DNA of 64,000 nt from Tabrizicola sp. (GTDB taxonomy: Bacteria > Pseudomonadota > Alphaproteobacteria > Rhodobacterales > Rhodobacteraceae), in assembly GCF_016793705.1 (NCBI RefSeq), contig NZ_JAEULO010000043.1, positions 351 to 64,350 on the forward strand. The letters are read 5' to 3'. The position numbers and the translations under genes are program-made. The notes under the pieces are model-generated. The model was not told the origin of the DNA, ran no database searches, and saw only the letters and a list, made by a program, of their open reading frames with translations. Each line of letters begins with the position of its first letter. The stretch's first letter is position 1. This document shows, in pieces, positions 28,530 through 40,601 of the stretch.

Positions 28530-28624
28530 TTGAACCGGAAAGGAAGGGTTGTTCCCCCTCCCATCCCGGTCAGCTTCAAGGGGAAACGTCGGCCGAGAAT
28601 CCAGCCGACGCCGCTTTCGTAGCG

Positions 28625-29236
28625 TCAGTTCTTCTTCGGGGAACTTCCGCTGCTCTCACCCGAGCCCGAGCTGCCGCCCATACCCGACCCGCTGCTGCCG
28701 TGCACGCCCGAGCCGGACTTGCGGTTCTTGCGCCAGTCCTCGAACTCGCTGTCGAATTTCTTCTGGCGCTCGTCGTTGAATGCCTTGAAGTCCTCGTCAT
28801 GGGCCTGCATCTGCCGCTCGCGCCAGTTGTGGTAATGCTGGTCCTGGCTCATGCGGCGGCCCGGCTGGCCCTGCCCGCCCTGGCCGTAGCCGGACTGATA
28901 GTCACCATAGCCGCCTTGCGCATAGCCATAGCCCTGCCGATCGCCATAACCGCTCTGATCGGAATACATCCCGCCGCCCGCTTCGCCGTAGCCCCGGCTG
29001 CGCTGGTCATCGTACATGCCGCCCGACTGCCTGCGCGAGCCGTAGGTCCGACCGTAGTCCGACCCCTCGCCGCGGCCCGAGCCGTAATCTTCGTCTTCCT
29101 CGGACCAGCGCGACGACCCCGACGCACCGCGGCGGTTGTAGCGGTCGTCCTCGGCATAGGCGCGACCGGACGGCCCGGCCCGGTCGCCGCGATACGAACT
29201 GCCGCGATGGTCGTCGTCTTCATATCTTTGTGCCAT
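28625..29236 (-). CDS. Low-complexity G/R/D/S/Y-rich protein with a helical C-terminal segment
   Basis: GGAG RBS, EcfG-type promoter; DQHYHNWRERQMQAHDEDFKAFNDERQKKFDSEFEDWRKNR. Confidence 0.8.
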   Translation of the reverse strand: MAQRYEDDDHRGSSYRGDRAGPSGRAYAEDDRYNRRGASGSSRWSEEDEDYGSGRGEGSDYGRTYGSRRQSGGMYDDQRSRGYGEAGGGMYSDQSGYGDRQGYGYAQGGYGDYQSGYGQGGQGQPGRRMSQDQHYHNWRERQMQAHDEDFKAFNDERQKKFDSEFEDWRKNRKSGSGVHGSSGSGMGGSSGSGESSGSSPKKN

Positions 29237-29289
29237 GTCTCTCTCCAGTTGCTTGCCCGCGGGGGCGCCCCCCTTGCGGCTGTCTGTTC

Positions 29290-29314
29290 AACCGGGGCCG
29301 CATCCGATTGTTCC
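29290..29314 (-). promoter_or_regulatory. EcfG-type promoter
   Basis: GGAAC-N17-GTT on the minus strand, upstream of 28625..29236. Confidence 0.75.
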
Positions 29315-29381
29315 AGACCCAGTCAGGGGATCACCCGCGGTTCACGGGCTCTCGCGAAAGCCGGCAGTGGGACATGAAAAA

Positions 29382-29416
29382 CCGGTGGCCGCACCGCTTT
29401 CGCGCACAACCACCGG
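29382..29416 (-). terminator. Intrinsic terminator
   Basis: GC hairpin with G-U pairs and a GAAA loop, followed by TTTTT on the minus strand. Confidence 0.6.
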
Positions 29417-29478
29417 CCCCGGCAGGCCGAAGAGATCGACCCGCCAGTCGTCCCGCGATCAGGGCTGTCGCGGGTCCG

Positions 29479-29928
29479 TCACAGCGTGCCGACCGCTTCG
29501 CAGATCGCCTTCATCTCGGCCAGGTCATAGCCGGTCGGGGCGGTGGTCGCTGGATCGGTCGATGTCGTGCCGGTCGCTGCCCCGTCGCTTGCCGCCGTAT
29601 CCGCAGAGGTGTCCGCGGCGGCGGCCGAGCCGTCCGTTCCCGCATCGCCATGCGCGGTAAGGAAGGCCTGGCAATCGGCCTTGATCATCGTCTGGTCTTC
29701 CGGGCTCAGCGATTGCCAGCCCTTCGTCAGCTCCTCCCTGCTGCGCAGCGTCGCGCTGTCGGCATCGGTGAAGAAGGTGGTCCCGACCGAAAGCGGCCAG
29801 TTGGTCCCGAACTCGCCCGCTGTGGCGGCTTCGGGCGTGGCGTTCCCGATGGCGGTGGCATCGCTCTGGGCAGTCGCTTCCGCTGAAAGCAGAATCGTCA
29901 CGGGCAGGGCAAGGATGACGCGTTTCAT
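29479..29928 (-). CDS. Secreted hypothetical protein
   Basis: Signal peptide MKRVILALPVTILLSAEATA, AAAGGA RBS, two Cys, Ala/Thr/Asp-rich linker. Confidence 0.75.
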   Translation of the reverse strand: MKRVILALPVTILLSAEATAQSDATAIGNATPEAATAGEFGTNWPLSVGTTFFTDADSATLRSREELTKGWQSLSPEDQTMIKADCQAFLTAHGDAGTDGSAAAADTSADTAASDGAATGTTSTDPATTAPTGYDLAEMKAICEAVGTL

Positions 29929-30009
29929 GGCTCGTCCTTTCAATCATTGCAGGATGTCGCGCGGAGCAGCTTGTGCGCCCGCCTATGGTCTGAAGTCGCC
30001 AGTCCTCAG

Positions 30010-30034
30010 AACCATCGGGACAAGGATTTGTTCC
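30010..30034 (-). promoter_or_regulatory. EcfG-type promoter
   Basis: GGAAC-N17-GTT on the minus strand. Confidence 0.7.
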
Positions 30035-30180
30035 CGGTGCACGTGCTTCTCTAGAGGAACGCCGGGATGCAACGGTCGGGCCGCAATCCGCCGATGATCC
30101 GCAGAAAAGGTCTTTACTTTTCGTCGTTTGCGATAACCTTGAACAAACCGGGTTTGCGCTGCGTCGCAGGGAGGGAACCC

Positions 30181-30345
30181 ATGCCGCAGGAAACCGACCC
30201 GAAAGCCGGCCCCGAGACGGATGCTGACCTGCGTCAGGTTCTGGACAATGCCAAGGCGGAACCCGTTCCCGGCAAGATCATCGAACTTGCGGAAAAGCTG
30301 GAGGGCGTGCTCGCCGCGAAGCGGAAGCCGCAAAAGCCTCGCTAG
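30181..30345 (+). CDS. nepR: NepR-like anti-sigma factor
   Basis: LRQVLDNAKAEPVPGKIIELAEKL matches the NepR pattern LRxxxDxxxxEPVPxxxxxL; 54 aa; GGAGG RBS. Start re-assigned. Confidence 0.65.
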   Translation: MPQETDPKAGPETDADLRQVLDNAKAEPVPGKIIELAEKLEGVLAAKRKPQKPR

Positions 30346-30348
30346 ATC

Positions 30349-30537
30349 TCAGCCATGCACCGGCGGGATCACCTTCCCCGGCGGCGGCTGTTGCGGGTCC
30401 TGGGGCGGTACGGGTTGCGGGTCTGGCATCGGGTCCGGAAAGACATCCGGCTCGACAGGATCGCCGGGAACCGGAAGCTCGGGTTCAGCGGGCGGCAGAT
30501 CCGGACCTTCGGGGCGACCGAAAGCATGAGGCATCAT
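30349..30537 (-). CDS. Small Pro-rich protein
   Basis: AGGAG RBS; PAEPELPVPGDPVEPDVFPDPMPDPQPVPPQDP. Confidence 0.6.
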   Translation of the reverse strand: MMPHAFGRPEGPDLPPAEPELPVPGDPVEPDVFPDPMPDPQPVPPQDPQQPPPGKVIPPVHG

Positions 30538-30604
30538 CTGAAGTGCTCCTGTTGCAGGTCGGCAGGGGGAGGGCCGGACCGCAACGCGCGATCCGCTCCT
30601 CTCG

Positions 30605-30904
30605 TCAGTCGCGATGCTCGGGCAGGGCCTTCAGCTGGTCCTTGGTCCAGGACGTCATGCCATGGACGTTGCCGTTCTCGTCGCGCATCATGTTCAGCTT
30701 GTCCAAGGCCACCAGAACCGGCTTCGAGCCGATCCCGAGGAACCCGCCCACGTCGATGACCGCCTGCGCTGTATCTCCGCCCGCCCCGTGCAGATGCGAG
30801 ATCGTGCCCACCTTCTCGTCCTCCGCCCCGTAGATCGGGGCGCTGACCAGGTTCGACTCGGTCAACTCGGCGGCGCTCAGTCGGGTATGCGTGCTATGGT
30901 CCAT
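30605..30904 (-). CDS. PRC-barrel domain protein
   Basis: IYGAEDEKVGTI, VIDVGGFLGIGSKPV, WTKDQLKALP. Confidence 0.88.
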   Translation of the reverse strand: MDHSTHTRLSAAELTESNLVSAPIYGAEDEKVGTISHLHGAGGDTAQAVIDVGGFLGIGSKPVLVALDKLNMMRDENGNVHGMTSWTKDQLKALPEHRD

Positions 30905-30957
30905 CGCAGATCGCTCCTCTGTTCCAGGCCGGACGGTTCCGGCCGATCAGAGGATGC

Positions 30958-30983
30958 AACCGGCAACCCGCCGGGATTGTTCC
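30958..30983 (-). promoter_or_regulatory. EcfG-type promoter
   Basis: GGAAC-N18-GTT on the minus strand. Confidence 0.7.
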
Positions 30984-30996
30984 CCTGCCGAAGGCG

Positions 30997-31182
30997 TCAA
31001 TCCTCCTTGCGCTCTGGCAAGCCCTTGCGCGGGGTGGCCGCCAGTTCTTCCAGCTCGCGCTCCGTCATGGACTTGGCCATGTCCTTCGACGCGCCGAAAA
31101 GCTTGTCCTTGCTCGTCTCGCCGCGCTTTGCGGCCAGGGCCGCCCCCGCCGCCTTCTGCTGTGCCTTCGATCTGGCTGGCAT
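30997..31182 (-). CDS. DUF3008-family small protein
   Basis: MPARSKAQQKAAGAALAAKRG...SMTERELEELAAT. Confidence 0.85.
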   Translation of the reverse strand: MPARSKAQQKAAGAALAAKRGETSKDKLFGASKDMAKSMTERELEELAATPRKGLPERKED

Positions 31183-31275
31183 GATCATTCCTCCGTGTCA
31201 GGTTTCCCCGGCTTCGGGCGTGCGTCAGCTTCGGGAGTGTCCACCATCGGGGCCTCCAGCCGGTCAGGCCATACC

Positions 31276-31301
31276 AAGCCCCGGCCTGCGCGGATTGTTC
31301 C
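31276..31301 (-). promoter_or_regulatory. EcfG-type promoter (variant -10)
   Basis: GGAACAAT with N18-CTT spacing. Confidence 0.5.
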
Positions 31302-31408
31302 CCAACGTCCGCATCACGGAATCGGGAGCCTTTCTCCCGGTCGCGGATCCTTCGGGACCGGCCATCACCGGACGAGATCCGCTTCTTCTCCGGCCTCGCC
31401 GTCTGCCG

Positions 31409-31948
31409 CTACCGGGCCGGAAACGGATGGCTCAGCCCCGGCGCACCCGCCATGCCGAACCGCCACGGACGCTCGACGGCGCGCGTGATCCCGATCCGCG
31501 GGCCGACCAGCAATTCCGTCGCCCGCCCGCCGCCCTCCAGCGCGAACCCCTCGGCACCGAACAAGGTCCCGCCATCGGAAAGCCCGATCCCCAGCGCCTG
31601 GCCCACCCGGCCAGGCCCCGCCGCCAGCAGTCCCGCCCCGCCCCGGCGCTCCCGCATCGCCTCGATGCCGAACTCCGGCCGGATCGCGCGGATCAGCACC
31701 GCCTCGCCCGGCCGCCCCACCACGTTCAGGCACAGATGGCAGCCGTAGGACAGATAGACATAGACGCTGCCCGCCGGGCCGAACATCGCCGCATTCCGCG
31801 CCGTCAGTCCGCGAAAACTGTGCGAGGCCGGGTCGTCCCGCCCATACGCCTCGGTCTCCAGAACGGTCCCGCCCACGCCGCGCACCAGAAGCCGCGCCCC
31901 GATCAGGTCGCGGGCCAGGCCGGTGATCTCCTGGTCAAAGATCAGCAT
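31409..31948 (-). CDS. 3-methyladenine DNA glycosylase (Mpg/AAG family)
   Basis: ETEAY, AMFGPAGSVYVY, AVLIRAI, GPGRV, GPRIGI. Start re-assigned to 31948. Confidence 0.9.
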   Translation of the reverse strand: MLIFDQEITGLARDLIGARLLVRGVGGTVLETEAYGRDDPASHSFRGLTARNAAMFGPAGSVYVYLSYGCHLCLNVVGRPGEAVLIRAIRPEFGIEAMRERRGGAGLLAAGPGRVGQALGIGLSDGGTLFGAEGFALEGGGRATELLVGPRIGITRAVERPWRFGMAGAPGLSHPFPAR

Positions 31949-31978
31949 CCGCCTCTCGCATGAAACTTTCCCCGCTCT

Positions 31979-32004
31979 GGAACGCCACGCCCCCGATCCG
32001 CGTT
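31979..32004 (+). promoter_or_regulatory. EcfG-type promoter
   Basis: Perfect GGAAC-N17-CGTT. Confidence 0.8.
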
Positions 32005-32031
32005 TCCACCTATAGCCACAGGGAACCCGGC

Positions 32032-32301
32032 ATGTCGCGCCAGAAGCCACCCGTTCAACCCTTCAACCTTGCGCTCGAAGGTCGGCTCCTCGCTCACCGT
32101 CGGCTCCTGGTCGAGCTTGTGCGATCCCTGCCCGATGCCCGCCGGGCCGAGTTGATGGACTGGCTCGATGACCGCGCCCTCTATCGGGACGGTCAGGAAG
32201 ATCCCGGCGCCGTTCCGGGCGAGGGGATCGCGCTGGAGCTTGCCCGCGCCGACGAATTCCGGCTTCTGAAGCGTCTCTGCGCCAGTCTGGAGCCCGACTG
32301 A
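32032..32301 (+). CDS. Hypothetical protein
   Basis: ATG 27 bp after the EcfG-type promoter; LEGRLLAHRRLL and QEDPGAVP. Confidence 0.7.
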   Translation: MSRQKPPVQPFNLALEGRLLAHRRLLVELVRSLPDARRAELMDWLDDRALYRDGQEDPGAVPGEGIALELARADEFRLLKRLCASLEPD

Positions 32302-32320
32302 TCCGTCGTTCGGCAGCCGG

Positions 32321-32346
32321 GGAACATTTCGCCCCTGCCGCAGGTT
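32321..32346 (+). promoter_or_regulatory. EcfG-type promoter
   Basis: GGAAC-N17-GGTT. Confidence 0.72.
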
Positions 32347-32379
32347 CCTTCAGGATGTCCAAACCACCCGGAGACTGCC

Positions 32380-32601
32380 ATGTCCGCCCCCAAAACCAAC
32401 CTCGAAACCCAAAGACGTCGGCACATCGTCCCGCTGATCGGCATGGCGCTGGTCGTGATCTTCGGGGTCGGCCTGATCCTCTTCTGGCAGTTCGAAGAGG
32501 CCGCGCGGGGTGACTCTCCGGGCACGGACGTGACCGACAGCCCGGATGCCCGCCCGAACGATGCCACCAACCCGCCCGTGACGCCCGCTCCGATCGAGTG
32601 A
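32380..32601 (+). CDS. Small single-TM protein
   Basis: GGAG RBS; MSAPKTNLETQRRRH, then a TM helix and a P/T/D tail. Confidence 0.8.
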   Translation: MSAPKTNLETQRRRHIVPLIGMALVVIFGVGLILFWQFEEAARGDSPGTDVTDSPDARPNDATNPPVTPAPIE

Positions 32602-32616
32602 AGCCCGGCAAGATGA

Positions 32617-32640
32617 AAGCCCGGCCGCAAGGCCGGGCTT
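32617..32640 (+). terminator. Hairpin terminator
   Basis: AAGCCCGGCC-GCAA-GGCCGGGCTT, perfect stem. Confidence 0.75.
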
Positions 32641-32665
32641 CGCATTTCAGGACGGGGGGCAAAGG

Positions 32666-32737
32666 TTTAGAAAGTCCTAATTTCCACAAGCAACCCCTTG
32701 ATCTGAAACCATTCTCGCGGATTGTCCACTGTGGACA
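32666..32737. repeat. Intergenic repeat copy B
   Basis: IHF-like GATCAAGGGGTTG (minus strand, 32691-32703), 19-nt gap, TGTCCACTGTGGACA at 32723-32737; same spacing as copy A. Confidence 0.75.
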
Positions 32738-32750
32738 GCCCGCACCCGCC

Positions 32751-32924
32751 TCAGCGCTGCTGAGGCCGGTTCTGGTCCTGCTGGCCTTTCTGCTGGCCTT
32801 GGCCCGCCTGCCTTTGGTCGGCCTGGCCCTGACCACCTTGCTGCGGCTTGTGCTGGCCGCCCTGGTTGTCCTGGCCTTGCTGCTTCTGTTGGTCCTGCTG
32901 CGGGTTCTGCTGCTGGTTCGCCAT
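32751..32924 (-). CDS. 57-aa Gln/Gly-rich disordered microprotein (not in the ORF track)
   Basis: MANQQQNPQQDQQKQQGQDNQGG...RPQQR*; AAAAGGAGAG RBS; own EcfG-type promoter. Confidence 0.8.
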   Translation of the reverse strand: MANQQQNPQQDQQKQQGQDNQGGQHKPQQGGQGQADQRQAGQGQQKGQQDQNRPQQR

Positions 32925-32958
32925 CGTTTCTCTCCTTTTCGGCTGGCAATGCAGAAAG

Positions 32959-32983
32959 AACCGCCGTTCCGCCGCATTGTTCC
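32959..32983 (-). promoter_or_regulatory. EcfG-type promoter
   Basis: GGAAC-N17-GTT on the minus strand. Confidence 0.75.
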
Positions 32984-32985
32984 CG

Positions 32986-33010
32986 GGAACCGTCGTCCTC
33001 CCCCCGGGTT
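32986..33010 (+). promoter_or_regulatory. EcfG-type promoter for ku
   Basis: GGAAC-N17-GTT. Confidence 0.75.
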
Positions 33011-33037
33011 GAGCACATTCACCGGATGGAGACCCCG

Positions 33038-33847
33038 ATGCCCGCTGGCGCCTTCTGGAAGGGCTACCTCAAGCTCTCGCTCGTCACCTGCCCTGTGGCG
33101 ATGCAGCCCGCCACCAGCGACAGCGGCCGCCTGCGCTTCCACACCCTCAACCGCCGGACCGGCAACCGGGTGCAGCGGCAGTATGTCGACGCGGTGACCG
33201 GGAAACGGGTGGCGGACGAAGACCAGGCCCGCGGCTACCCGCGCGGGGAAGACGGCCATGTGATCCTGGAGGAAGCCGAGCTTGACGCCGTCGCCCTGGA
33301 AAGCACCCGGACCATCGACATCGAGGAGTTCGTCCCCTCCGGCCGCATCGGCTGGATCTGGTATGACCGCCCGCATTTTCTGGTCCCCGATGACAGGATT
33401 GCCGAAGAGGCCTTCTCGGTCATCCGCGACGCCATGCGGTCCACCGATACCGTCGGCATCGCGCGGCTGGTCCTCTACCGCCGCGAGCGGGCGGTGATGC
33501 TGACCCCGCGCGGCAAGGGGATCATCCTGTGGACCCTCCGCTATGGCGACGAGGTGCGGGACGAGGCGGAGTATTTCGCCGAGGCGGAAGCATCGAAGCC
33601 CGATGGCGAAGCGCTGAAGCTGGTCAGCCGGTTGATCGAAAGCCGGACCGCGGACTGGGACCCGAGCCTGGTCGAGGACCCGGTTCAGGACCGGCTGCTG
33701 AAACTGATCGAGTCGAAGCGGAAGGGCAGCAAGCGGGCGGCCAGGGCCAAGCCGGAGGCTCCGGCGGAGAGCGGCAAGGTGGTCAGCATCATCGACGCCC
33801 TGAAACGCAGCATCGCCGCCGAGAAGGCCCCGTCGCGCAAGCGCTAG
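33038..33847 (+). CDS. ku: NHEJ Ku protein (copy 1)
   Basis: AFWKGYLKLSLVTCPV; YDRPHFL; VVSIIDALKRS. Its stop shares a CTAG with the ligD stop. Confidence 0.94.
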   Translation: MPAGAFWKGYLKLSLVTCPVAMQPATSDSGRLRFHTLNRRTGNRVQRQYVDAVTGKRVADEDQARGYPRGEDGHVILEEAELDAVALESTRTIDIEEFVPSGRIGWIWYDRPHFLVPDDRIAEEAFSVIRDAMRSTDTVGIARLVLYRRERAVMLTPRGKGIILWTLRYGDEVRDEAEYFAEAEASKPDGEALKLVSRLIESRTADWDPSLVEDPVQDRLLKLIESKRKGSKRAARAKPEAPAESGKVVSIIDALKRSIAAEKAPSRKR

Positions 33848-36303
33848 GCGGGCAGAGACCGCGCTGCCTCGGCGAAACCCTCCCAGGGGTCGCGGCGCAG
33901 CGATTGCAGGCGGACGGGCATGGTCCGCACCGTGAAATCCGCAGGCCCTGCCCCGGCGGCAAGCTCGTCCCAGGTCACGGGGGCCGACACCTGCGCGCCG
34001 GGCCGGGCGCGTGTCGAATAGGCCGCCACCGCCGTCGCGCCCCTCTGGTTCCGCAGGTAGTCGACCAGAATCTTCCCCCGCCGCTTCGATTTGGTGATCG
34101 TCGCCACATAGCGGGACGGATCCTCCGAGGCCATTGCCTGCGCAAGGTCGCGGCAGAAGGTCTTGACGGCAGGCCAGTCCGCCCTGGGCTGCAAGGGCGC
34201 CACGACATGCAGCCCCTTGCCGCCCGAGGTCTTGGCGAAGGCCGCAAGGCCAACCGCTTCCAGCCTTTGCCGGACGTCCGTCGCCGCCGCCACCAGGTCC
34301 GCCCATGCGATCCCCTCACCGGGGTCGAGGTCGATCACGATGCGGTCCGGCCTCTCCCAGTCCTTCAGCGTGCCGCCCCAGGGGTGGATCTCCAGTGCCG
34401 CCGATTGCACCAGCGCGATCAGCCCGTCGAGGGTCGCAATCGCCAGCGACGGCGCATCCTTCGGCTCGGCAGGGTCCTGTACCCGCAGGATGGCGGCGTT
34501 CATCCCCTTCCATTCGTGTTTCTGGAAGAACTGCTGCCCGCCGATCCCGTCCGGGCAGCGCAAGAGCGCCAGCGGGCGACCGATGACATGCGGGGCGATC
34601 CAGGACCAGACCGCCGTGTAGTAATCCGCAAGCTCGGCCTTGGTGATCCCCTCCTTGGGCCAGTAGACGCGATCGGGATGGGTCAGCTTGATCCGCCGGG
34701 CGGGAGGCGGGTCGGTGGGCGTGGCTTCCGCGTCCTCTGGCGCTGGGGAGGGCCGTCCTTCGCCCGTCACCTCGCTGGCCTCCTTGTCCTCGCGCAGGCC
34801 CCGAAAGGCGGCGTGGCGCAGGTTGCCGTCGGCGGTCCAGGCTCGGAAATCCACCTCGGCCACCAATTCCGGCCGGACATAGCGCACTCCGCGTTTCTCC
34901 ACGCCCTTGAGCAGCGGGTCGAAGGGCGATTCCCCGGTCTCCAGCGCCTTGAGCCTTGTCATCAGCCCTTCCGCCACGGCGGCGGAGAAGCCTGTGCCGA
35001 CCCGGCCGACATGGTGCAGCTTGTCGCCCCGGAACACGCCCATCACCAGAGACCCGATGGCGCGGGGTGAAGCGGCCGAGGGCACGAAGCCGCCGATCAC
35101 GAACTCCTGCCGGGCCGAGCATTTCGACTTGACCCAAGCCTGCCCCCGCCCTGCCCGATAGGGGCTGTCGCGCAGCTTCGAGACGACGCCTTCCAGCCCC
35201 ATCCGGCAGGCATGGCGCAGCACGATCTCGCCCCGGTCATCCAGATGGTCGCTGAGCCGGATCGGGTCGGCGGCCTTGGCGACCAGCGTGGCGAGCAGGC
35301 GCTTGCGTTCGACCAGCGGCAACGGGGTCAGGTCGTGGCCGTTCAGGTGGAGGAGGTCGAAGACGTAGTAGAGCATCCGGTCGCTGCGCCCCTCGGAGAG
35401 GTCGGCCTGCAAGGCCGAGAAGTCCGATGACCGCCCCGCCACTTCCACCACCACCTCGCCGTCAAGGATCGCCTGTTCGGCGGGGAGCCCTGCCAGCGCC
35501 CTGGCCAACGCCTCTCCGAACCGCCCGGTCCAGTCGCGGCCCGACCGGGTGAAGAGGCGGACCTTGCCGTCCATCAGATGCGCCTGGATGCGGTAGCCAT
35601 CGAACTTGATCTCGTGCAGCCAGCGGTCGTCGCCGGGGGTCGCCTTGACCAGGGTCGCCAGCATCGGCGGCAGGAAGTCCGGCATCGTAGCGGCGGGTGA
35701 GGGCGGGGATCTCCTGCTGCGAGGTTTCCGGGCGGGTTTGCCCGCGACCTCCTCGATCAGCCGTCCCGTCTTCACCGACTCCGGGCGTTCCTCCAGGATG
35801 TCGGGGGCGCTTTCGTCGCGTGCGCTGGCATCCTCGCCCTTGATCAAGAGCCAGTTCTCGCGCTTTTCCCTGGGCTTGCTGCGCATCCGGATCAGGTGCC
35901 AGCGGCCCGTCAGCTTTTCGCCCTTCAGCTCGAATTCCAGATGACCCTTGGCAAAGCCCTTCGCGGCGTCGAAGACCGGCGTCCAGGTGCCGCGGTCCCA
36001 GACGATCACCGTGCCTGCGCCATACTGGCCCGCGGGGATCGTGCCCTCGAAGCTGCCGTAGTCCATCGGGTGATCCTCGACATGGACCGCAAGGCGCTTT
36101 TCGCCCGGCACGAGGCTGGGCCCGCGCGTCACCGCCCAGCTTTTCAGCACCCCGTCCACCTCCAGCCGCAGGTCATAGTGCAGCCGCGTCGCATCGTGCT
36201 TCTGGATGACGAAGACCGGATCGCCCGCCGACTTGCGCTTGCGGCCCTTCGGCTCGGGCGTCGCATCGAAGTCGCGCATCGACTGGTAGGTCTCCAGCAC
36301 CAT
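33844..36303 (-). CDS. ligD: DNA ligase D (phosphoesterase-ligase-polymerase)
   Basis: HYDLRLE (PE domain), HEIKFDGYR (ligase adenylation), KTSGGKGLHV and DYLRN (polymerase). Confidence 0.96.
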   Translation of the reverse strand: MVLETYQSMRDFDATPEPKGRKRKSAGDPVFVIQKHDATRLHYDLRLEVDGVLKSWAVTRGPSLVPGEKRLAVHVEDHPMDYGSFEGTIPAGQYGAGTVIVWDRGTWTPVFDAAKGFAKGHLEFELKGEKLTGRWHLIRMRSKPREKRENWLLIKGEDASARDESAPDILEERPESVKTGRLIEEVAGKPARKPRSRRSPPSPAATMPDFLPPMLATLVKATPGDDRWLHEIKFDGYRIQAHLMDGKVRLFTRSGRDWTGRFGEALARALAGLPAEQAILDGEVVVEVAGRSSDFSALQADLSEGRSDRMLYYVFDLLHLNGHDLTPLPLVERKRLLATLVAKAADPIRLSDHLDDRGEIVLRHACRMGLEGVVSKLRDSPYRAGRGQAWVKSKCSARQEFVIGGFVPSAASPRAIGSLVMGVFRGDKLHHVGRVGTGFSAAVAEGLMTRLKALETGESPFDPLLKGVEKRGVRYVRPELVAEVDFRAWTADGNLRHAAFRGLREDKEASEVTGEGRPSPAPEDAEATPTDPPPARRIKLTHPDRVYWPKEGITKAELADYYTAVWSWIAPHVIGRPLALLRCPDGIGGQQFFQKHEWKGMNAAILRVQDPAEPKDAPSLAIATLDGLIALVQSAALEIHPWGGTLKDWERPDRIVIDLDPGEGIAWADLVAAATDVRQRLEAVGLAAFAKTSGGKGLHVVAPLQPRADWPAVKTFCRDLAQAMASEDPSRYVATITKSKRRGKILVDYLRNQRGATAVAAYSTRARPGAQVSAPVTWDELAAGAGPADFTVRTMPVRLQSLRRDPWEGFAEAARSLPA

Positions 36304-36304
36304 C

Positions 36305-37126
36305 CTATCCCGCCTTCCGCTTCGGCGCCTTCGAAACAGGCTGCCGGCCCTTCGCCGCCTTCGCGCTTTCGCGCAGCGCCGCCATAAGGTCGACCACCTT
36401 TTCGCGCTGTGGCTCTTTCCGGCGCGGCGGCGGGCGGCCTTCCAGCTTGGCCTTCACCAGATCGGCCAGGGCGGCATCGTAGCGGTCGTCGAAGGAGGAG
36501 GGATCGAAGTCGCCCAGCTTGGTGCCGATTATATGCTCGGCCAGGTCCAGCATCTCGCCCTGGATCTCGATCTTCGGAATGTCGGCGAAGGCCTTCTCGG
36601 CCGAGCGGACCTGGTAGTCGAAGTTCAGGGTGTTGGCGATGAAGCCTGCCCCCTGCGGCCGGATCAGCAGCGTGCGGAGACGGCGGAAAAGCACGGTGCG
36701 GGCGAGCGCCGCGACCTGCTTGCGCTCCATCCCCTCGCGCAAGAGCGCGAAGGCCTCGACCGAGGCGGGATCGGCGGGGGCAAGGTAATAGGGCCGGTCG
36801 AAGTAGAGCGTATCGATCTCGGCGCAGGACAGGAAGCTTTCGATGGGCAGGCTCTTGTCGGAGTCGGGGATGGTGGCGGCGATTTCCCCGGCCTCCAGAA
36901 GCACGTAGTCACCGCTGTCGACCTCGTAGCCCATGGCCTCGTCCTCGTCCGCCACGGGTTTGCCGGTTTCGGAATCGACCATCTCGTTGCGCAGCCGGTT
37001 GCCGGTGCGGCGGTTGACCATGTACAGGGCGACGCGGTCGGAGGTGGCGGCCGCAGTATAGAGCTTCACGCCGAAGGCGATCTCGCCCAGGCGCATCCGG
37101 CCCTTCCAGCTTGCCCGTGGCGCCAT
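36305..37126 (-). CDS. ku: NHEJ Ku protein (copy 2)
   Basis: MAPRASWKG; YFDRPYYLAP; VVDLMAALRES. Start re-assigned to 37126. Confidence 0.93.
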   Translation of the reverse strand: MAPRASWKGRMRLGEIAFGVKLYTAAATSDRVALYMVNRRTGNRLRNEMVDSETGKPVADEDEAMGYEVDSGDYVLLEAGEIAATIPDSDKSLPIESFLSCAEIDTLYFDRPYYLAPADPASVEAFALLREGMERKQVAALARTVLFRRLRTLLIRPQGAGFIANTLNFDYQVRSAEKAFADIPKIEIQGEMLDLAEHIIGTKLGDFDPSSFDDRYDAALADLVKAKLEGRPPPRRKEPQREKVVDLMAALRESAKAAKGRQPVSKAPKRKAG

Positions 37127-37177
37127 CTGCCCGTCTCCATTCCCGACCGCAAAGCACGCGGGTCCGACGGAGTCGTG

Positions 37178-37203
37178 AACCGCCGGGTGTGCGGTTCGGT
37201 TCC
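37178..37203 (-). promoter_or_regulatory. EcfG-type promoter for ku2-ligD
   Basis: GGAAC-N18-GTT on the minus strand. Confidence 0.72.
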
Positions 37204-37264
37204 CTTGCCATTCGCCGATCTGGGCTGATTGCCGCCGGCGTGTGGCCGCAGAGCCACTTGGGGC

Positions 37265-37289
37265 GGAACCGCATCTGCCGCCCGGCATT
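37265..37289 (+). promoter_or_regulatory. EcfG-type promoter for the sigma-factor gene (possible autoregulation)
   Basis: GGAAC-N16-CATT. Confidence 0.65.
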
Positions 37290-37318
37290 GACCCCGGCAT
37301 GCCCGATGGAGAGGCCCG

Positions 37319-37792
37319 ATGTCCGACGACGTGCTAAGCCATATCCCCGCCCTGCGCCTCTTTGCCCGGTCGCTCACGGGGCGCTACGGTGATGCGGATG
37401 ATCTGGTGCAGGACACCCTTGTCCGCGCGATTGCCAGCGCCGCCTCCTATTCCGCGGGGACCAACATGCGGGCCTGGTTGTTCACCATCATGCGCAACTG
37501 CTTCTACAACAACCGCGTGAAGCTGAACCGCGAACAGCCGGGGGCCGAGACCTGCGTCTCCGACACTCCATCGACGCCTGACAGCCAGTACTGGCACCTG
37601 CGCGGCCGCGAGGTCGAGGCGGCGCTGATGGCGCTGCCGCAGGCCTACCGCGAGGCGGTGATGCTGGTGCTGGTTACGGGCGAAAGCTACCAGTCCGCCG
37701 CGGACATTCTGGAGGTGGACATCGGCACGATCAAAAGCCGGATCAGCCGGGGACGGAAGCTGCTTCAGGTCGCGCTCGGCGAAGAGGTCTGA
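37319..37792 (+). CDS. ECF sigma factor, EcfG/RpoE2/SigT-like
   Basis: LRLFARSL, ADDLVQDTL, GTNMRAWLFTIMRN, GTIKSRISRGR. Confidence 0.85.
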   Translation: MSDDVLSHIPALRLFARSLTGRYGDADDLVQDTLVRAIASAASYSAGTNMRAWLFTIMRNCFYNNRVKLNREQPGAETCVSDTPSTPDSQYWHLRGREVEAALMALPQAYREAVMLVLVTGESYQSAADILEVDIGTIKSRISRGRKLLQVALGEEV

Positions 37793-37798
37793 GGCCTT

Positions 37799-37823
37799 GG
37801 AACATTCCCCGGCGCGGTGGGTT
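37799..37823 (+). promoter_or_regulatory. EcfG-type promoter
   Basis: GGAAC-N17-GTT. Confidence 0.75.
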
Positions 37824-37861
37824 TGTGGCAGCGAAGCCCCGCAAAACCACAGGAGACGAAG

Positions 37862-38359
37862 ATGAAGACCAAGACCCTCGAAGTGCTGTTCCACGAGACG
37901 CTGAAGGACATCTACTACGCCGAGCGGAAGATCCTGCGCGCGTTGCCGAAAATGGCGCGCGGGGCGCAGTCCCCGGAACTGCGCGCGGCCTTCGAGAAGC
38001 ACGAAGAGGAAACCCAGGGCCATGTCGAGCGCCTCCAGCAGGTCTTCGATCTGATCGGCAAACCGGCGCGCGGCAAGACCTGTCCGGCCATCGACGGCAT
38101 CATCGAAGAGGGCGAAGAGGCGCTTCAGGCCTTCGCTGACACCCCGGCGCTTGATGCCAGCCTTGTCGCCGCGGCCCAGGCGGTCGAGCATTACGAGATC
38201 GCCCGCTACGGCACCCTATGCCGCTGGGCGCAGGTCATGGGCCTGAAGGACGCCGCGAAGCTTCTGGAGCAGACCCTGCAAGAGGAAAGCATGACCGACG
38301 AGGTGCTGACCCGGATCGCGGACGGGTCGGTCAACCAGACGGCGCTGCAAGCGGCCTGA
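37862..38359 (+). CDS. yciF: Ferritin-like DUF892/YciF stress protein
   Basis: LKDIYYAE, HEEET, QAVEHYEIARYGTL; AGGAG RBS. Confidence 0.9.
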   Translation: MKTKTLEVLFHETLKDIYYAERKILRALPKMARGAQSPELRAAFEKHEEETQGHVERLQQVFDLIGKPARGKTCPAIDGIIEEGEEALQAFADTPALDASLVAAAQAVEHYEIARYGTLCRWAQVMGLKDAAKLLEQTLQEESMTDEVLTRIADGSVNQTALQAA

Positions 38360-38656
38360 CCTCCGGCTGCGCTCTGGAGTTGCTCCCTTTCCACAAGGCG
38401 CAGTCGGCGGGCGGTTCCGCTTCCCCCGGAGCCGCCCGTTTCCCGTTTCACCGAGGTGACCGATGCCTGGCCAAGATATGAACATTCACCAGGCCCACCT
38501 GCCAATGAGCGGCTTCATCAGCCGGAATGGCATCTCGTCAACCAGCGCCGGCAGCAGATTGACCCGGCGGGACAACAACACCCGTCCCGACAGCAACCGC
38601 AGGCGGCCGGGCGGCGGCGTCCAAAGGATAGAACCAGGCCAGAAGGATCCGACATC

Positions 38657-39514
38657 GTGACCGATCATCCCAAGCCCCCCTTTCCCGAACAGACCCAGGA
38701 CGCCCCTGGCAGCTTTGCCCCGATGCAGCCCCGCCCCGATCATGGCGAGACGACCTGGGTCGGCGCCGGACGCCTGCAAGGCCGCGTCGCGCTGATCACC
38801 GGGGCGGACAGCGGCATCGGCCGCGCCGTCGCCATCGCCTTCGCGCGGGAAGGGGCGGACATCGCGCTCTGCTTCCTGAACGAAACCGAAGACGCCGCCG
38901 ATACCGCGAGGCTGATTGAGGACGAAGGCCAGAGCTGCGTGAAGATAGCGGCCGACCTGTCCGACTCCGCCGAATGCCGCCGCGTCGTGCAGGAGGCCGT
39001 CAATACCTGGGGCCGGATCGACATCCTGGTGAACAACGCCGCGCATCAGACCGTCTGCGAAAGCTTCGAGGATCTCTCGGCGGCGGAATGGGACAAGACC
39101 TTTGCCATCAACATCGACGCGGTCTTCCACCTGTCGCAGGCCGCCGTGCCGCACATGGGCGCCGGAAGCTCGATCATCAACACCGCTTCGATCAATGCCG
39201 ACAAGCCGAACCCCACGCTTCTGGCCTATGCCACGACGAAGGGTGCGATCCAGAATTTCACCGCAGGCCTCGCCCAGCTTCTGGCAGACCGCGAGATCCG
39301 CGTGAATTGCGTGGCCCCCGGCCCGGTCTGGACCCCGCTGATCCCGTCCAGCATGACTGGCGAGAAGGTGGCGAAGTTTGGCCAGGACAGCCCGATGAAA
39401 CGCCCAGCTCAGCCCGTCGAGCTGGCCTCGGCCTATGTGATGCTTGCCGAGCCGATGTCCAGTTATGTCTCCGGCGCGACCATCGCCGTCACCGGTGGCG
39501 CGCCGATGCTTTGA
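38657..39514 (+). CDS. Classical SDR oxidoreductase (YghA-type general-stress SDR)
   Basis: TGADSGIG, YATTK, NCVAPGPVWTPL. Probable GTG start at 38657. Confidence 0.88.
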   Translation: MTDHPKPPFPEQTQDAPGSFAPMQPRPDHGETTWVGAGRLQGRVALITGADSGIGRAVAIAFAREGADIALCFLNETEDAADTARLIEDEGQSCVKIAADLSDSAECRRVVQEAVNTWGRIDILVNNAAHQTVCESFEDLSAAEWDKTFAINIDAVFHLSQAAVPHMGAGSSIINTASINADKPNPTLLAYATTKGAIQNFTAGLAQLLADREIRVNCVAPGPVWTPLIPSSMTGEKVAKFGQDSPMKRPAQPVELASAYVMLAEPMSSYVSGATIAVTGGAPML

Positions 39515-39520
39515 CGCATC

Positions 39521-39545
39521 GGAACAATCGACGCGCTTCCCGGTT
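39521..39545 (+). promoter_or_regulatory. EcfG-type promoter
   Basis: GGAAC-N17-GTT. Confidence 0.75.
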
Positions 39546-39586
39546 GAGCTGTCTGCACGTCCCTTGCGACAGAAAGGACTTCTACC

Positions 39587-39904
39587 ATGACCGATCTACC
39601 CCCAAGGACAACGCCTGGTACCGATGGCCGCCGCGTCCCGGAGACGCGCTATTCGCAATCCAGCATGTGGATCGTCCTGCTGATTCTTGCGGCAGTCATC
39701 ATTGCCGCGGTGGTCTTCAGCATGAACCGCTCCGGCAGCGTGGTCGACCAGACGGTGATCGAACCAGCCGCCGATACTCCCGCCGTCACCGAAACGGCCC
39801 CCGCGACCGGTGCCGGGACGGGCACCGAACCAGCGCCGATGCCGGAGAGCGGGGAAACCGCGCCAGCCACTCCGGCTCCGGCCACCGATACGACCGCGCC
39901 GTAA
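39587..39904 (+). CDS. Small single-TM protein with a P/A/T-rich tail
   Basis: AAAGGA RBS; WIVLLILAAVIIAAVVF. Confidence 0.78.
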   Translation: MTDLPPRTTPGTDGRRVPETRYSQSSMWIVLLILAAVIIAAVVFSMNRSGSVVDQTVIEPAADTPAVTETAPATGAGTGTEPAPMPESGETAPATPAPATDTTAP

Positions 39905-39923
39905 CTCCCGCCTGACAATCGCG

Positions 39924-39956
39924 CAAAGGCCGCCCCATTGCCCGGGACGGCCTTTG
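39924..39956. terminator. Bidirectional hairpin
   Basis: CAAAGGCCG...CGGCCTTTG between convergent genes. Confidence 0.65.
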
Positions 39957-40007
39957 TCCGTGGTTTCTCCGCTGCGTGCGCCCTTAGGCATGACGTTGAA
40001 CCTGGCG

Positions 40008-40526
40008 TCAGAGATCGACCTCGCCGCGTGTCCCGAGATCGGGTGACTGTTTGCGAACGGCGCCCTTGACCAAGCTCGCAAGCCCGGCCAAGAGACCGGG
40101 GCCATCCCAGATGTCGACATGGCCGGGGTCTATGACCAGTGTCACCACGTCATGCGCCTCCGGACCGTTCGGCCAGAAGACCTCGGCCCCCGGATTCCAC
40201 AGATCCTTGACCAGCTCCTTGTCCGGATTCACCGTCGCGCGGCCCTGCAAGGCCAGATGGTCGCCCTTGCCCTGGTAGGACAGGAAGACCGAGGCCTCGG
40301 CCTCTATCTCTCGTGCTGCAGAGGAGTTCGCTTCGGTCAGGATGTAGATGACACCTTTGTCCAGCGCGGGAATGGTCGACATCGGTCGACCTCGCAGCCC
40401 TTCTGCCGAGCCGGTCACCAGCATGGCGATGTCGATCGCCTTCAGCATCTCCCATACCCTTTCGGCAGGAATTGTCTGCACTGGCGAGGGATTCGGCGTG
40501 TCGGGGTGGTCTGAAACAAGGGCCAT
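40008..40526 (-). CDS. General stress protein (pyridoxamine-5'-phosphate oxidase-like, FMN-binding split barrel)
   Basis: DIAMLVT, LRGRPM, DLWNPGAEVFWPNG. Confidence 0.85.
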   Translation of the reverse strand: MALVSDHPDTPNPSPVQTIPAERVWEMLKAIDIAMLVTGSAEGLRGRPMSTIPALDKGVIYILTEANSSAAREIEAEASVFLSYQGKGDHLALQGRATVNPDKELVKDLWNPGAEVFWPNGPEAHDVVTLVIDPGHVDIWDGPGLLAGLASLVKGAVRKQSPDLGTRGEVDL

Positions 40527-40575
40527 TGAACTGTCCTTTGCTGTGCCACCGCAGCGGCAGTGAATCGCCCAGTCA

Positions 40576-40601
40576 AACGTCCGGTAGCGGGTTTCGGTTC
40601 C
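40576..40601 (-). promoter_or_regulatory. EcfG-type promoter
   Basis: Perfect GGAAC-N17-CGTT on the minus strand. Confidence 0.8.

What the first reader, a model, noticed from the sequence alone, without database searches (positions are those of the whole stretch)
28533..40601. 12-kb island where almost every transcription unit carries the same EcfG-type promoter
Seen: 13 GGAAC-N17/18-(G/A/C)TT sites, each correctly oriented shortly upstream of a gene. Minus strand: 29314, 30034, 30983, 31301, 32983, 37203, 40601. Plus strand: 31979, 32321, 32986, 37265, 37799, 39521. Six extend to GGAACAA. An EcfG-like sigma gene lies inside the island behind one of them. Established: GGAAC-N16/17-CGTT-type promoters are read by EcfG/RpoE2/SigT. 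Inference: a physically clustered, self-amplifying general-stress regulon that also assigns a function to about 10 hypothetical small genes.
Basis: partly seen in the sequence, partly recalled or inferred. Interest (0 to 1): 0.72.

Follow-up and report, generated by a model that had tools for sequence, protein, structure and literature searches.

The report
Clustered general-stress (EcfG) promoter regulon
A 12-kb stretch of an uncultured wastewater Rhodobacterales genome packs about 17 stress-survival transcription units (DNA end-joining repair, ferritin-like, disordered and small membrane proteins), 13 of them behind the same alphaproteobacterial general-stress promoter, together with a matching sigma factor and a likely anti-sigma factor. 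It is a clear but essentially ordinary new example of a well-known regulatory system.

Summary
All 13 GGAAC-N17/18-(G/A/C)TT sites are at the stated coordinates. Each lies 27-87 nt upstream of, and co-oriented with, a Shine-Dalgarno plus ATG. The stricter GTT form occurs 12 times in the 12-kb island and twice in the other 52 kb, which equals chance.

In four related contigs (sigma factor 84-85% identical) each orthologous gene keeps its own GGAAC/GGTT boxes. The surrounding DNA is only 32-45% identical and the gene order is shuffled.

The island sigma is EcfG-like but non-canonical: no phyR is in the window.
- a divergent NepR-like anti-sigma gene (30181-30345);
- the Ku-LigD-Ku end-joining genes;
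- four or five units that lack the motif;
- one decayed cassette.

EcfG control of ku/ligD, non-canonical EcfG copies and this promoter motif are all published. My survey shows that dense EcfG-box clusters around ecfG/phyR loci are common.

Verdict: a new member of a known kind. Self-amplification, and which sigma reads the sites, remain untested because no TSS data were obtainable. The most novel lead is a REC plus sigma2-like "reverse mini-PhyR" encoded next to the NepR-like gene in relatives; it is absent from the window.

The parts
28280..28555 (-). Decayed cassette. The promoter-like site at 28533-28555 has a spacer 2 nt shorter than in the orthologues. It precedes a truncated SWFGD-like repeat-protein gene with an in-frame TAG plus a frameshift; only the C-terminal 57 codons (28280-28453) remain open.
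   Evidence: the intact 217-aa orthologue is at L001 18822-19475
28625..29236 (-). 203-aa Gly/Ser/Tyr/Asp/Arg-rich, probably disordered 'hydrophilin-like' protein. No Pfam or NCBIfam hit.
29290..29314 (-). EcfG-type promoter GGAACAA-N-CGGTT for the 203-aa gene. The -10 ends 53 nt before the ATG.
29479..29928 (-). 149-aa protein with an N-terminal signal-peptide-like segment. Conserved in L001, L090 and L250.
30010..30034 (-). EcfG-type promoter for the 149-aa secreted protein (81-nt leader).
30181..30345 (+). 54-aa NepR-like anti-sigma candidate (LRQVLDNAKAEPVPGKIIELAEKLE). No EcfG box lies upstream.
   Evidence: Custom NepR HMM: top of 3029 six-frame ORFs, E 0.005. Profile-profile comparison with canonical NepR: 94.6%, E 7e-8. 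Pfam PF18557 does not hit it. Called as a gene in L082.
30349..30537 (-). 62-aa proline-rich protein. It has no promoter of its own here, although it does in L001, L090 and L250. Probably co-transcribed with the PRC-barrel gene.
30605..30904 (-). 99-aa PRC-barrel domain protein.
   Evidence: PF05239, 2.9e-7
30958..30983 (-). EcfG-type promoter for the PRC-barrel gene (and probably the P-rich gene).
30997..31188 (-). DUF3008 protein (61-63 aa).
   Evidence: PF11450, 9e-28
31276..31301 (-). EcfG-type promoter with a CTT -10, for DUF3008 (87-nt leader).
31410..31948 (-). Methylpurine-DNA glycosylase (179 aa). No perfect site upstream; the orthologues in L001 and L250 have one.
31979..32004 (+). 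EcfG-type promoter (CGTT -10) for the 89-aa gene.
32032..32301 (+). 89-aa conserved hypothetical protein.
32321..32346 (+). EcfG-type promoter for the 73-aa membrane protein. It is palindromic, so 32323-32348 also matches on the - strand.
32380..32601 (+). 73-aa protein with one predicted transmembrane helix.
32751..32924 (-). 57-aa glutamine-rich protein.
32959..33010 (.). Back-to-back divergent EcfG-type promoters: 32959-32983 (-) for the Q-rich gene and 32986-33010 (+) for ku1. The -35 boxes abut as GTTCC-CG-GGAAC.
   Evidence: the same architecture is at L001 5603/5607
33038..33847 (+). Ku1 (269 aa).
   Evidence: PF02735, 1e-42
33844..36303 (-). LigD (819 aa: phosphoesterase + ligase + primase-polymerase domains), in an operon behind ku2.
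36305..37126 (-). Ku2 (273 aa), 35% identical to Ku1.
37178..37203 (-). EcfG-type promoter for ku2-ligD.
37265..37289 (+). EcfG-type promoter variant (GGAAC-N16-CATT) for the sigma gene. The -10 is non-G in all five lineages.
37319..37792 (+). Non-canonical EcfG-like ECF sigma factor (157 aa).
37799..37823 (+). EcfG-type promoter for DUF892, and probably also for the downstream small ORF and SDR.
37862..38359 (+). DUF892 (YciE/YciF-type ferritin-like) protein, 165 aa. Largely deleted in sibling strains.
38463..39514 (+). 65-aa hydrophilic ORF (38463-38660) overlapping the start of a 285-aa SDR oxidoreductase (38657-39514).
39521..39545 (+). EcfG-type promoter for the 105-aa membrane protein.
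39587..39904 (+). 105-aa protein with one transmembrane helix and a Pro/Thr/Ala-rich tail.
40008..40526 (-). Pyridoxamine-5'-phosphate-oxidase-like protein (172 aa).
   Evidence: PF16242, 9e-27
40576..40601 (-). EcfG-type promoter (ACGTT -10) for the PNPOx-like gene.

Best explanation
The region 28.2-40.6 kb is a chromosomal cluster of about 17 transcription units. It belongs to the alphaproteobacterial general stress response (GSR) of an uncultured Tabrizicola-like Rhodobacterales bacterium from activated sludge.

Thirteen units carry a GGAAC-N16/17-(G/C)GTT promoter; the local consensus is GGAAC(A/C)(A/T)-N-GGTT. An EcfG-type (ECF15) sigma-RNA polymerase holoenzyme would read these sites.

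Proposed mechanism (inferred, not shown):
1. Without stress, an EcfG-type sigma is held by a NepR-type anti-sigma. The island encodes one of each: the sigma at 37319-37792 and the NepR-like gene at 30181-30345.
2. On stress, a PhyR-type anti-anti-sigma titrates NepR. It is not encoded in the window. In relatives, a REC plus sigma2-like protein sits next to the nepR-like gene.
3. The freed sigma transcribes the cluster: Ku1 and Ku2-LigD (end-joining repair for non-growing cells), a ferritin-like DUF892 protein with an SDR, a PNPOx-like protein, a PRC-barrel protein, DUF3008, disordered hydrophilic proteins and small membrane proteins.
4. It also transcribes its own gene from a deliberately weak CATT -10 promoter, giving positive feedback.

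Shown here: the sites, their placement and enrichment, their conserved presence at orthologous genes, and the identities of the proteins. Inferred: transcription from the sites, which sigma reads them, the partner switch and the feedback.
For: Sites and statistics. Placement 27-87 nt upstream of SD+ATG and co-oriented in 13 of 13 cases. No sigma70-like promoter in the 13 kb.

Conservation: in L001, L090, L091 and L250 (sigma 84-85% identical) every orthologous gene has its own GGAAC/NGTT pair at the same relative place. Upstream, spacer and downstream identities are 32%, 45% and 43%, and gene order differs. None of the 117 core positions is polymorphic among eight sibling contigs (not significant on its own).

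Sigma: the best solved relative is 5uxx_A (3.7e-30, about 45% identity); the next is M. tuberculosis SigH at 2.4e-22. It is 41-47% identical to the EcfG genes next to phyR in 79 of 80 loci. It matches 46 of 69 columns that are at least 80% conserved in 78 of them.

NepR-like gene.

Gene content matches published GSR regulons, including ku-ligD and catalases (PMC7083833). ku3-ku4/ligD4 are RpoE2-dependent, and about 90% of ku-bearing alphaproteobacteria have an EcfG box at a ku gene (PMC6379672). The published motif is GGAAC-N16-CGTT (PMC3892343, PMC7083833).
Against: - There is no transcript 5'-end evidence. Metatranscriptome contigs cover the region thinly, run across divergent promoters, and so cannot resolve starts.
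- The sigma lacks the defining nepR-phyR neighbourhood and diverges at a third of the conserved EcfG columns.
- Its own promoter lacks the G of GTT.
- The NepR-like protein fails Pfam's NepR model and is not co-transcribed with the sigma.
- The REC-sigma2 partner found in relatives is missing from the window and its sibling strains, so how the system would be switched on here is unknown.
- Four or five units have no site.
- The conservation figures for the boxes themselves are partly circular, because sites were located by the motif. The independent fact is that a site exists at each orthologue.
Confidence: 0.8

Rival explanations
1. The promoters are real EcfG-type promoters, but they are driven mainly by a canonical EcfG encoded with nepR and phyR elsewhere in the genome. 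The island sigma is only a regulon member or secondary paralogue, like SigU, RpoE5 or EcfG2. It would have a minor or distinct role, and there would be no self-amplifying loop inside the cluster.
For: - The island sigma has no adjacent nepR-phyR.
- Its closest relatives beyond the 84-85% group (L002-L005, about 51%) also lack phyR.
- Canonical phyR-ecfG pairs are common in Rhodobacterales, including Rhodobacter, Cypionkella and Pararhodobacter, and in R. sphaeroides (PMC5830050).
- Half of alphaproteobacterial genomes carry extra non-canonical EcfG copies (PMC3892343).
- A related island (L288) has the regulon genes but no sigma within +/-8 kb.
- The sigma's own promoter is the weakest match.
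Against: - The sigma is kept next to the regulon genes in five lineages, always behind its own GGAAC box.
- A NepR-like gene and, in relatives, a PhyR_sigma2-bearing response regulator travel with the cluster. This suggests a dedicated regulatory module.
- No canonical locus could be shown for this organism or for the Tabrizicola MAG.
Confidence: 0.35
2. The motif is read by a different ECF family with a similar consensus, such as the SigH/SigR-type thiol-oxidative-stress sigma factors (GGAA(C/T)-N17/18-GTT; consensus recalled from memory). The cluster would then be a redox-stress regulon rather than the GSR.
For: The second-best solved relatives of the island sigma are M. tuberculosis SigH chains (2.4e-22). 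GGAAC...GTT is not unique to ECF15.
Against: - The best relative is 5uxx_A, by 25 bits.
- Identity to PhyR-linked EcfGs is 41-47% over the full length.
- No ZAS-type anti-sigma gene lies next to the sigma, whereas a NepR-like gene is in the cluster.
- The gene content (ku/ligD, DUF892, catalase in relatives) matches published EcfG regulons (PMC7083833, PMC6379672).
- The organism is an alphaproteobacterium.
Confidence: 0.04
3. The repeated motif is not a set of promoters. It would instead be a by-product of a repeated or mobile sequence, of base composition, or of chance.
For: The genome is high in GC, and several sites are palindromic (32321/32348; 21215/21241 outside the island).
Against: - Shuffles never reach the observed count.
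- No extended repeat family carries the sites; only the two short boxes are shared.
- All 13 sites are intergenic, co-oriented and at leader distance from start codons.
- The boxes persist at orthologous genes while the flanks have randomised.
Confidence: 0.01

Closest known systems
PhyR-NepR-EcfG general stress response of Alphaproteobacteria (M. extorquens EcfG1, C. crescentus SigT, S. meliloti RpoE2, S. granuli EcfG1/2)
   Same: - The same -35 GGAAC and N16/17 spacing, with a GTT-containing -10 (published consensus GGAAC-N16-CGTT; PMC3892343, PMC7083833).
- An ECF15-like sigma and a small NepR-like protein.
- The same kinds of targets: ku-ligD, catalase in relatives, and many small unknown proteins.
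   Different: - There is no phyR in the window.
- The nepR-like gene is 7 kb from the sigma, on its own and without an EcfG box, instead of forming a nepR-ecfG operon.
- The local -10 consensus is GGTT rather than CGTT.
- The sigma gene's own -10 is CATT.
RpoE2-controlled ku3-ku4 / ligD4 stress-inducible NHEJ of Sinorhizobium meliloti (PMC6379672)
   Same: Two divergent Ku paralogues (35% identical here) and a LigD sit behind EcfG boxes. That paper already predicts EcfG boxes at ku genes in about 90% of ku-bearing alphaproteobacteria.
   Different: The arrangement here is ku1 convergent with a ku2-ligD operon, rather than a ku3-ku4 operon plus a separate ligD4. There are no functional data here.
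Non-canonical EcfG copies (R. etli EcfG2; C. crescentus SigU; Sphingomonas EcfG2) (PMC3892343)
   Same: An EcfG-like sigma gene without adjacent nepR/phyR, itself preceded by an EcfG-type box.
   Different: Here the non-canonical copy sits in the middle of a dense block of target promoters. It is accompanied by a divergent NepR-like gene and, in relatives, by a REC-sigma2-like regulator.
Sigma-B / sigma-S general stress regulons (B. subtilis YdaD SDR and YdaG 'GSP26' PNPOx-like; E. coli YciE/YciF DUF892). Recalled from memory, not tested here.
   Same: The same protein families (SDR, PNPOx-like, DUF892) recur as general-stress proteins.
   Different: The sigma factor family and the signalling logic are entirely different.

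Membership tests
EcfG-type (ECF15) sigma factor | Sequence affiliation with EcfG proteins rather than other ECF groups | tested here: met
   The best PDB relative is 5uxx_A at 3.7e-30, against 2.4e-22 for the next group. That 5uxx is the Bartonella quintana EcfG-NepR complex is my recollection and was not verified here (one search found no text). The sigma is 41-47% identical to the sigma next to phyR in 79 of 80 loci. It matches 46 of 69 columns conserved in 78 of them. NCBIfam top hits all fall below their equivalog cut-offs.
EcfG-type (ECF15) sigma factor | Genomic linkage to nepR (same operon) and phyR (canonical copies) | tested here: not met
   No PhyR-like sequence is in the 64 kb. The only NepR-like gene is 7 kb away on its own. 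This fits the published category of non-canonical EcfG copies (PMC3892343), not the canonical one.
EcfG-type (ECF15) sigma factor | Own gene preceded by a GGAAC-N16/17-CGTT box (autoregulation) | tested here: inconclusive
   A GGAAC-N16-CATT box ends 29 nt before the ATG. The -35 box and spacing are right. The -10 lacks the G in all five lineages: CATT in four, AATT in one.
EcfG-type (ECF15) sigma factor | Binding and inhibition by NepR; release by phospho-PhyR | not testable with these tools
   This needs two-hybrid, pull-down or in vitro transcription assays.
EcfG-dependent promoter | GGAAC -35, 16-17 nt spacer, (c)GTT -10 | tested here: met
   Eleven of 13 sites meet it strictly. The -10 is CTT at 31301 and ATT at 37265.
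EcfG-dependent promoter | Located upstream of, and co-oriented with, a gene at leader distance | tested here: met
   13 of 13 sites, with the -10 ending 27-87 nt before an SD+ATG.
EcfG-dependent promoter | Transcription start about 5-8 nt downstream of the -10; dependence on the sigma | not testable with these tools
   Only low-depth metatranscriptome contigs without direction were available.
NepR anti-sigma factor | Match to the curated family model (Pfam PF18557) | tested here: not met
   No hit even at E <= 10, whereas a canonical Bosea NepR scores 5e-14.
NepR anti-sigma factor | Homology of the core helix-EPVP-helix segment to NepR proteins encoded upstream of ecfG | tested here: met
   An HMM of 39 canonical NepRs ranks the ORF first of 3029 (E 0.005); the L001 orthologue ranks second. 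The L090 orthologue scores E 1e-6. hhalign gives 94.6%, E 7e-8 over 39 columns.
Bacterial NHEJ (Ku + LigD) | Ku beta-barrel domain; LigD with phosphoesterase, ligase and primase-polymerase domains | tested here: met
Horizontally acquired genomic island | Integrase/transposase, tRNA or direct-repeat borders, deviant composition | tested here: not met
   There are no tRNAs. GC is 0.65-0.69, like the flanks. No mobility gene appears among the annotated ORFs, and no flanking repeats were found. The flanks do differ from those of the Tabrizicola locus, so relocation or rearrangement has occurred.

The most novel reading that the evidence does not exclude
The cluster is a self-contained second general-stress module, distinct from the canonical PhyR-NepR-EcfG system. 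It would consist of a non-canonical EcfG, a divergent NepR and, in relatives, an uncharacterised 191-aa 'reverse mini-PhyR'. That protein has an N-terminal receiver domain followed by a C-terminal three-helix PhyR_sigma2-like segment, and is encoded divergently from the nepR-like gene. The module would control an array of single-gene promoter cassettes that are shuffled, gained and lost between closely related lineages. The window's lineage would have lost the switch protein, and with it perhaps normal control of the module.
Probability: 0.2. Interest if true: 0.6.

Novelty: new member of a known kind. Interest (0 to 1): 0.4.

Why it matters
It provides a clean, comparatively validated set of 13 EcfG-type promoters and a candidate sigma/anti-sigma pair for an uncultured wastewater denitrifier.

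It places about ten unannotated small proteins in the general-stress (probably stationary-phase or desiccation survival) programme, alongside end-joining DNA repair.

It shows that general-stress genes can be organised as a dense array of single-gene promoter cassettes that rearrange between close relatives. My survey suggests that dense clustering around ecfG/phyR loci is widespread, though rarely remarked on.

None of this changes the current understanding of the system. The only lead with real discovery potential is the receiver-plus-sigma2-like protein family found next to the NepR-like gene in relatives.

Tried and rejected
- **TSS evidence.** Two metatranscriptome runs hold the region, but only as low-depth, undirected contigs that even span divergent promoters. 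They were unusable.
- **Source genome.** It is not among the species representatives. Only one genome (Tabrizicola MAG L001) has a close sigma orthologue, together with three metagenome contigs and later L250.
- **Plasmid search.** Only the ku-ligD core (about 73% nt) is shared with Paracoccus replicons. A mini-cluster of boxes exists there too. The 12-kb cluster itself is not plasmid-borne.
- **Canonical PhyR in Tabrizicola.** This is inconclusive, not evidence of absence.
- **Naming the NepR-like protein.** Database search gave only two near-identical hits. Pfam and NCBIfam gave nothing.
- **Strain polymorphism as a constraint test.** 0 of 117 core positions are variable against 1.8% elsewhere. 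The power is too low to count as evidence.
- **Fold search of the receiver-sigma2 protein.** Receiver-domain hits dominate and say nothing specific about the C-terminal helices.
- **Other checks.** Rfam, tRNA and sigma70 scans found nothing in the island. The repeat-element explanation was rejected.
- **The GGAAC site at 23282.** It overlaps the imuB start and is half of a GAAC-N7-GAAC box, so it was not counted as an EcfG promoter.

Full report
**Observation.** Eleven are GGAAC-N16/17-NGTT. Site 31301 has CTT and site 37265 has ATT in the -10 position. Six start GGAACAA, as claimed.

Each site is followed by a Shine-Dalgarno-like run and an ATG opening an ORF on the same strand, with the -10 ending 27-87 nt before the ATG. 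The ORFs were picked by codon-position GC. Independent gene calls on a 98%-identical sibling contig reproduce them.

GGAAC-N16-18-GTT occurs 15 times in the window. One hundred dinucleotide-preserving shuffles gave 3.7 +/- 1.9, with a maximum of 10. With N16/17-NGTT there are 12 matches inside 28.5-40.6 kb and 2 in the other 52 kb. That is 0.99/kb against 0.039/kb, and 0.039/kb is exactly the compositional expectation. The two outside matches are one palindrome inside nosR.

A weight matrix built only from a different genome (L001) places 10 of its 11 best window hits in the island. No sigma70-like promoter is found in the 13 kb. No longer repeat carries the boxes.

**What is there.** From left to right:
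- a decayed SWFGD-like repeat-protein cassette (28280-28555);
- a 203-aa Gly/Ser/Tyr/Asp/Arg-rich protein;
- a 149-aa secreted protein;
- a 54-aa NepR-like gene on the opposite strand;
- a 62-aa Pro-rich protein;
- a PRC-barrel protein;
- DUF3008;
- a methylpurine-DNA glycosylase;
- an 89-aa protein;
- a 73-aa membrane protein;
- a 57-aa Gln-rich protein;
- Ku1, convergent with a Ku2-LigD operon;
- the 157-aa ECF sigma;
- DUF892 (ferritin-like);
- a 65-aa ORF overlapping the start of an SDR oxidoreductase;
- a 105-aa membrane protein;
- a PNPOx-like protein.

Thirteen of about 17 units carry the motif. The nepR-like gene, the glycosylase, the Pro-rich gene and the small-ORF/SDR pair do not. 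The last two are probably co-transcribed with their upstream neighbours.

The flanks are ordinary chromosomal genes: LPS, flagellar, nosRZDF and imuB-dnaE2 on the left, and LacI with a sugar ABC transporter on the right. GC content does not differ from the flanks, and there is no tRNA or mobility gene. 'Island' is therefore justified only in the sense of a cluster.

**Origin and relatives.** The sequence occurs in activated-sludge and bioreactor metagenomes. The nearest genome is a Tabrizicola MAG (L001, sigma 85% identical). Identity then drops to about 51%. Metagenome and follow-up searches added L090, L091 and L250 (84-85%) and L092 (61%).

These relatives hold the same genes in different orders:
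- The block 28.2-32.3 kb is inverted and moved in L001 and L250.
- The ku1-ligD-ku2 block is absent from L090 and L091, where the Gln-rich gene and the sigma gene are directly divergent.
- The SDR is absent from L090 and L091.
- A catalase, a second DUF892, DUF2934 and more small membrane proteins are added in L001.

Yet each orthologous gene keeps its own GGAAC-N16/17-GGTT in every lineage. The 30 nt upstream, the spacer and the 20 nt downstream are only 32%, 45% and 43% identical. Because I located the sites by the motif, the 100% and 98% identity of the boxes is partly circular. The independent fact is that a box pair exists at the same relative place for every orthologue in up to five lineages. 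This is the strongest evidence available here that the boxes are functional.

L001 has about 20 sites in 20 kb.

**The regulators.** The sigma hits Sigma70_r2, r4_2 and PhyR_sigma2. Its best solved relative is 5uxx_A (3.7e-30, about 45% identity), ahead of mycobacterial SigH. It is 41-47% identical over its full length to the sigma gene next to phyR in 79 of 80 loci fetched with a Rhodobacterales PhyR. That is the same range reported between bona fide EcfGs of different orders (PMC5830050). It matches 46 of the 69 columns that are at least 80% conserved in 78 of those canonical EcfGs.

It lacks the canonical neighbourhood. No PhyR-like sequence is in the window, and no nepR precedes it. It therefore belongs with the published 'non-canonical' EcfG copies (PMC3892343).

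It carries the NepR core (LR...EPVP....L...L):
- It is the top hit, of 3029 six-frame ORFs, of an HMM built from 39 NepRs encoded just upstream of ecfG in other genomes (E 0.005).
- The syntenic ORFs of L001 and L090 rank next or better.
- A profile of the island proteins matches a canonical NepR profile at 94.6% probability, E 7e-8.
- Pfam's own NepR model does not detect it. I call it NepR-like, not NepR.

In L001, L090, L250, L288 and L291 this gene is divergently paired with a 190-191-aa protein. That protein has an intact receiver domain (Asp57, Lys102) followed by a three-helix C-terminal segment resembling region 2 of EcfG/PhyR (lPxLRxxARxxLxDxxAADRLVE; PhyR_sigma2 hit below threshold). 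It forms a family of at least about 75 sequence clusters, annotated only as 'response regulator' or 'hypothetical'. An AlphaFold model (pLDDT 81.5) shows the receiver domain plus three helices. The fold search was uninformative beyond the receiver.

This gene is cleanly absent from the window and its sibling strains.

**Mechanism.** The best-supported reading is the standard partner-switch logic. An EcfG-type sigma is held by a NepR-type anti-sigma and released on stress by a PhyR-type protein. It then transcribes the 13 units.

The sigma gene's own box has a non-G -10 in all five lineages: CATT in four and AATT in one. That is consistent with a deliberately weak autoregulatory promoter. Because the nepR-like gene has no box, induction would raise sigma relative to anti-sigma. 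This part is inference.

It is equally possible that a canonical EcfG elsewhere is the main driver. Canonical loci are common in Rhodobacterales (PMC5830050), and one related cluster (L288) has no sigma within 8 kb.

**Comparison with what is known.**
- The motif is published (PMC3892343, PMC7083833).
- EcfG control of ku/ligD is published. PMC6379672 demonstrates it for S. meliloti ku3-ku4 and ligD4 and predicts boxes for about 90% of ku-bearing alphaproteobacteria. PMC7083833 places ku-ligD in the S. granuli GSR regulon.
- Non-canonical EcfG copies are published (PMC3892343).
- The clustering is not unique. Loci fetched through PhyR have a median of 0.57 boxes per kb, about 12 times chance. 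Seven of 65 loci fetched through the sigma have at least 10 boxes in 12 kb. The window has 12 and L001 has 15, which is the top of a continuum.
- I found no paper that describes such dense arrays explicitly, but they follow from known biology.

**Verdict.** It is unproven for self-amplification and incomplete on regulators and exceptions. This is a new member of a known kind, of moderate interest. The receiver-plus-sigma2-like protein family in relatives is the only element that might be new biology, and it lies outside the window.

Noticed in passing
L001:16475-17050 (+); also L090:12208-12780, L250:8001-8573, L288:8001-8573, L291:8001-8576, L004:3912-4478: An uncharacterised 190-191-aa protein family. 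It has an N-terminal receiver domain (Asp57 and Lys102 conserved) and a C-terminal three-helix PhyR_sigma2-like segment, the reverse of PhyR's domain order. It is encoded divergently from the NepR-like gene in five related clusters and is absent from the window. At least about 75 sequence clusters exist in public data, none with a functional name.
   Followed up: partly
window 37948-38637: Eight sibling contigs from other samples (97-99% nt, identical sigma protein) replace these 690 bp with about 49 unrelated nt. This removes most of DUF892 and brings the SDR close to the 37799 promoter. The window's intact version matches Tabrizicola and so looks ancestral.
   Followed up: partly
window 28280-28555 (-): The orthologue of a 217-aa SWFGD-like Asp/Arg/Gly repeat protein (L001 18822-19475) is broken here by a TAT-to-TAG change, a frameshift and a large internal loss. 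Its promoter spacer is 2 nt too short. It is a decaying cassette.
   Followed up: yes
window 23272-23286 (+): GAAC-AAATCAG-GAAC lies directly upstream of imuB (23289-24782), which is followed by dnaE2 (to 28171). It matches the alphaproteobacterial LexA/SOS box GTTC-N7-GTTC (recalled from memory). This explains the stray GGAAC...GTT match at 23282 without invoking EcfG.
   Followed up: partly
window 32979-32990; L001 5599-5611, 15262-15273: Divergent EcfG-type promoters are placed back to back, with their -35 boxes only 2-3 bp apart (GTTCC-NN-GGAAC). The arrangement recurs in the window and its relatives. Whether two holoenzymes can occupy both at once is unknown.
   Followed up: no
window 32321-32348: The promoter of the 73-aa gene is palindromic, so the - strand also reads GGAAC-N17-TGTT. 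A transcript from it would run antisense through the 89-aa gene towards the motif-less MPG glycosylase gene. The 31979 box likewise reads GGAAA-N18-CGTT on the - strand, 32 nt before the glycosylase ATG.
   Followed up: no
window 37265-37289 and orthologues: The sigma gene's own promoter has CATT (AATT in L250) in place of GGTT in all five lineages. Almost all other boxes in the cluster have G. This is a conserved sub-optimal -10.
   Followed up: partly
window 38463-38660 (+): A 65-aa hydrophilic ORF ends in an overlap with the SDR start codon. It is conserved as a separate ORF with an ATGA overlap in L001 and L250. The ORF listing fuses it in another frame into a spurious 352-aa SDR.
   Followed up: partly
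window 13980-22808 (-): A nitrous-oxide reductase cluster (apbE, nosF, nosD, nosZ, nosR), so the organism is a denitrifier. A palindromic GGAAC-N17-GTT pair at 21215/21241 lies inside nosR coding sequence and is probably chance.
   Followed up: partly
L081 (Paracoccus aminovorans plasmid IV) 11650-16110: A smaller version of the cluster sits on a 740-kb Paracoccus replicon. ku, ligD and a Gln-rich small gene each sit behind a GGAAC-N16/17-GTT box. The Gln-rich gene appears to be annotated on the wrong strand there.
   Followed up: partly
window 5636-5664 (+): AGAACATAGGCGCCGGGGGTCCGGTTGTC scores 17.9 bits with the L001 matrix. It lies antisense inside lptC and lacks the first G of GGAAC. It is probably fortuitous.
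   Followed up: no
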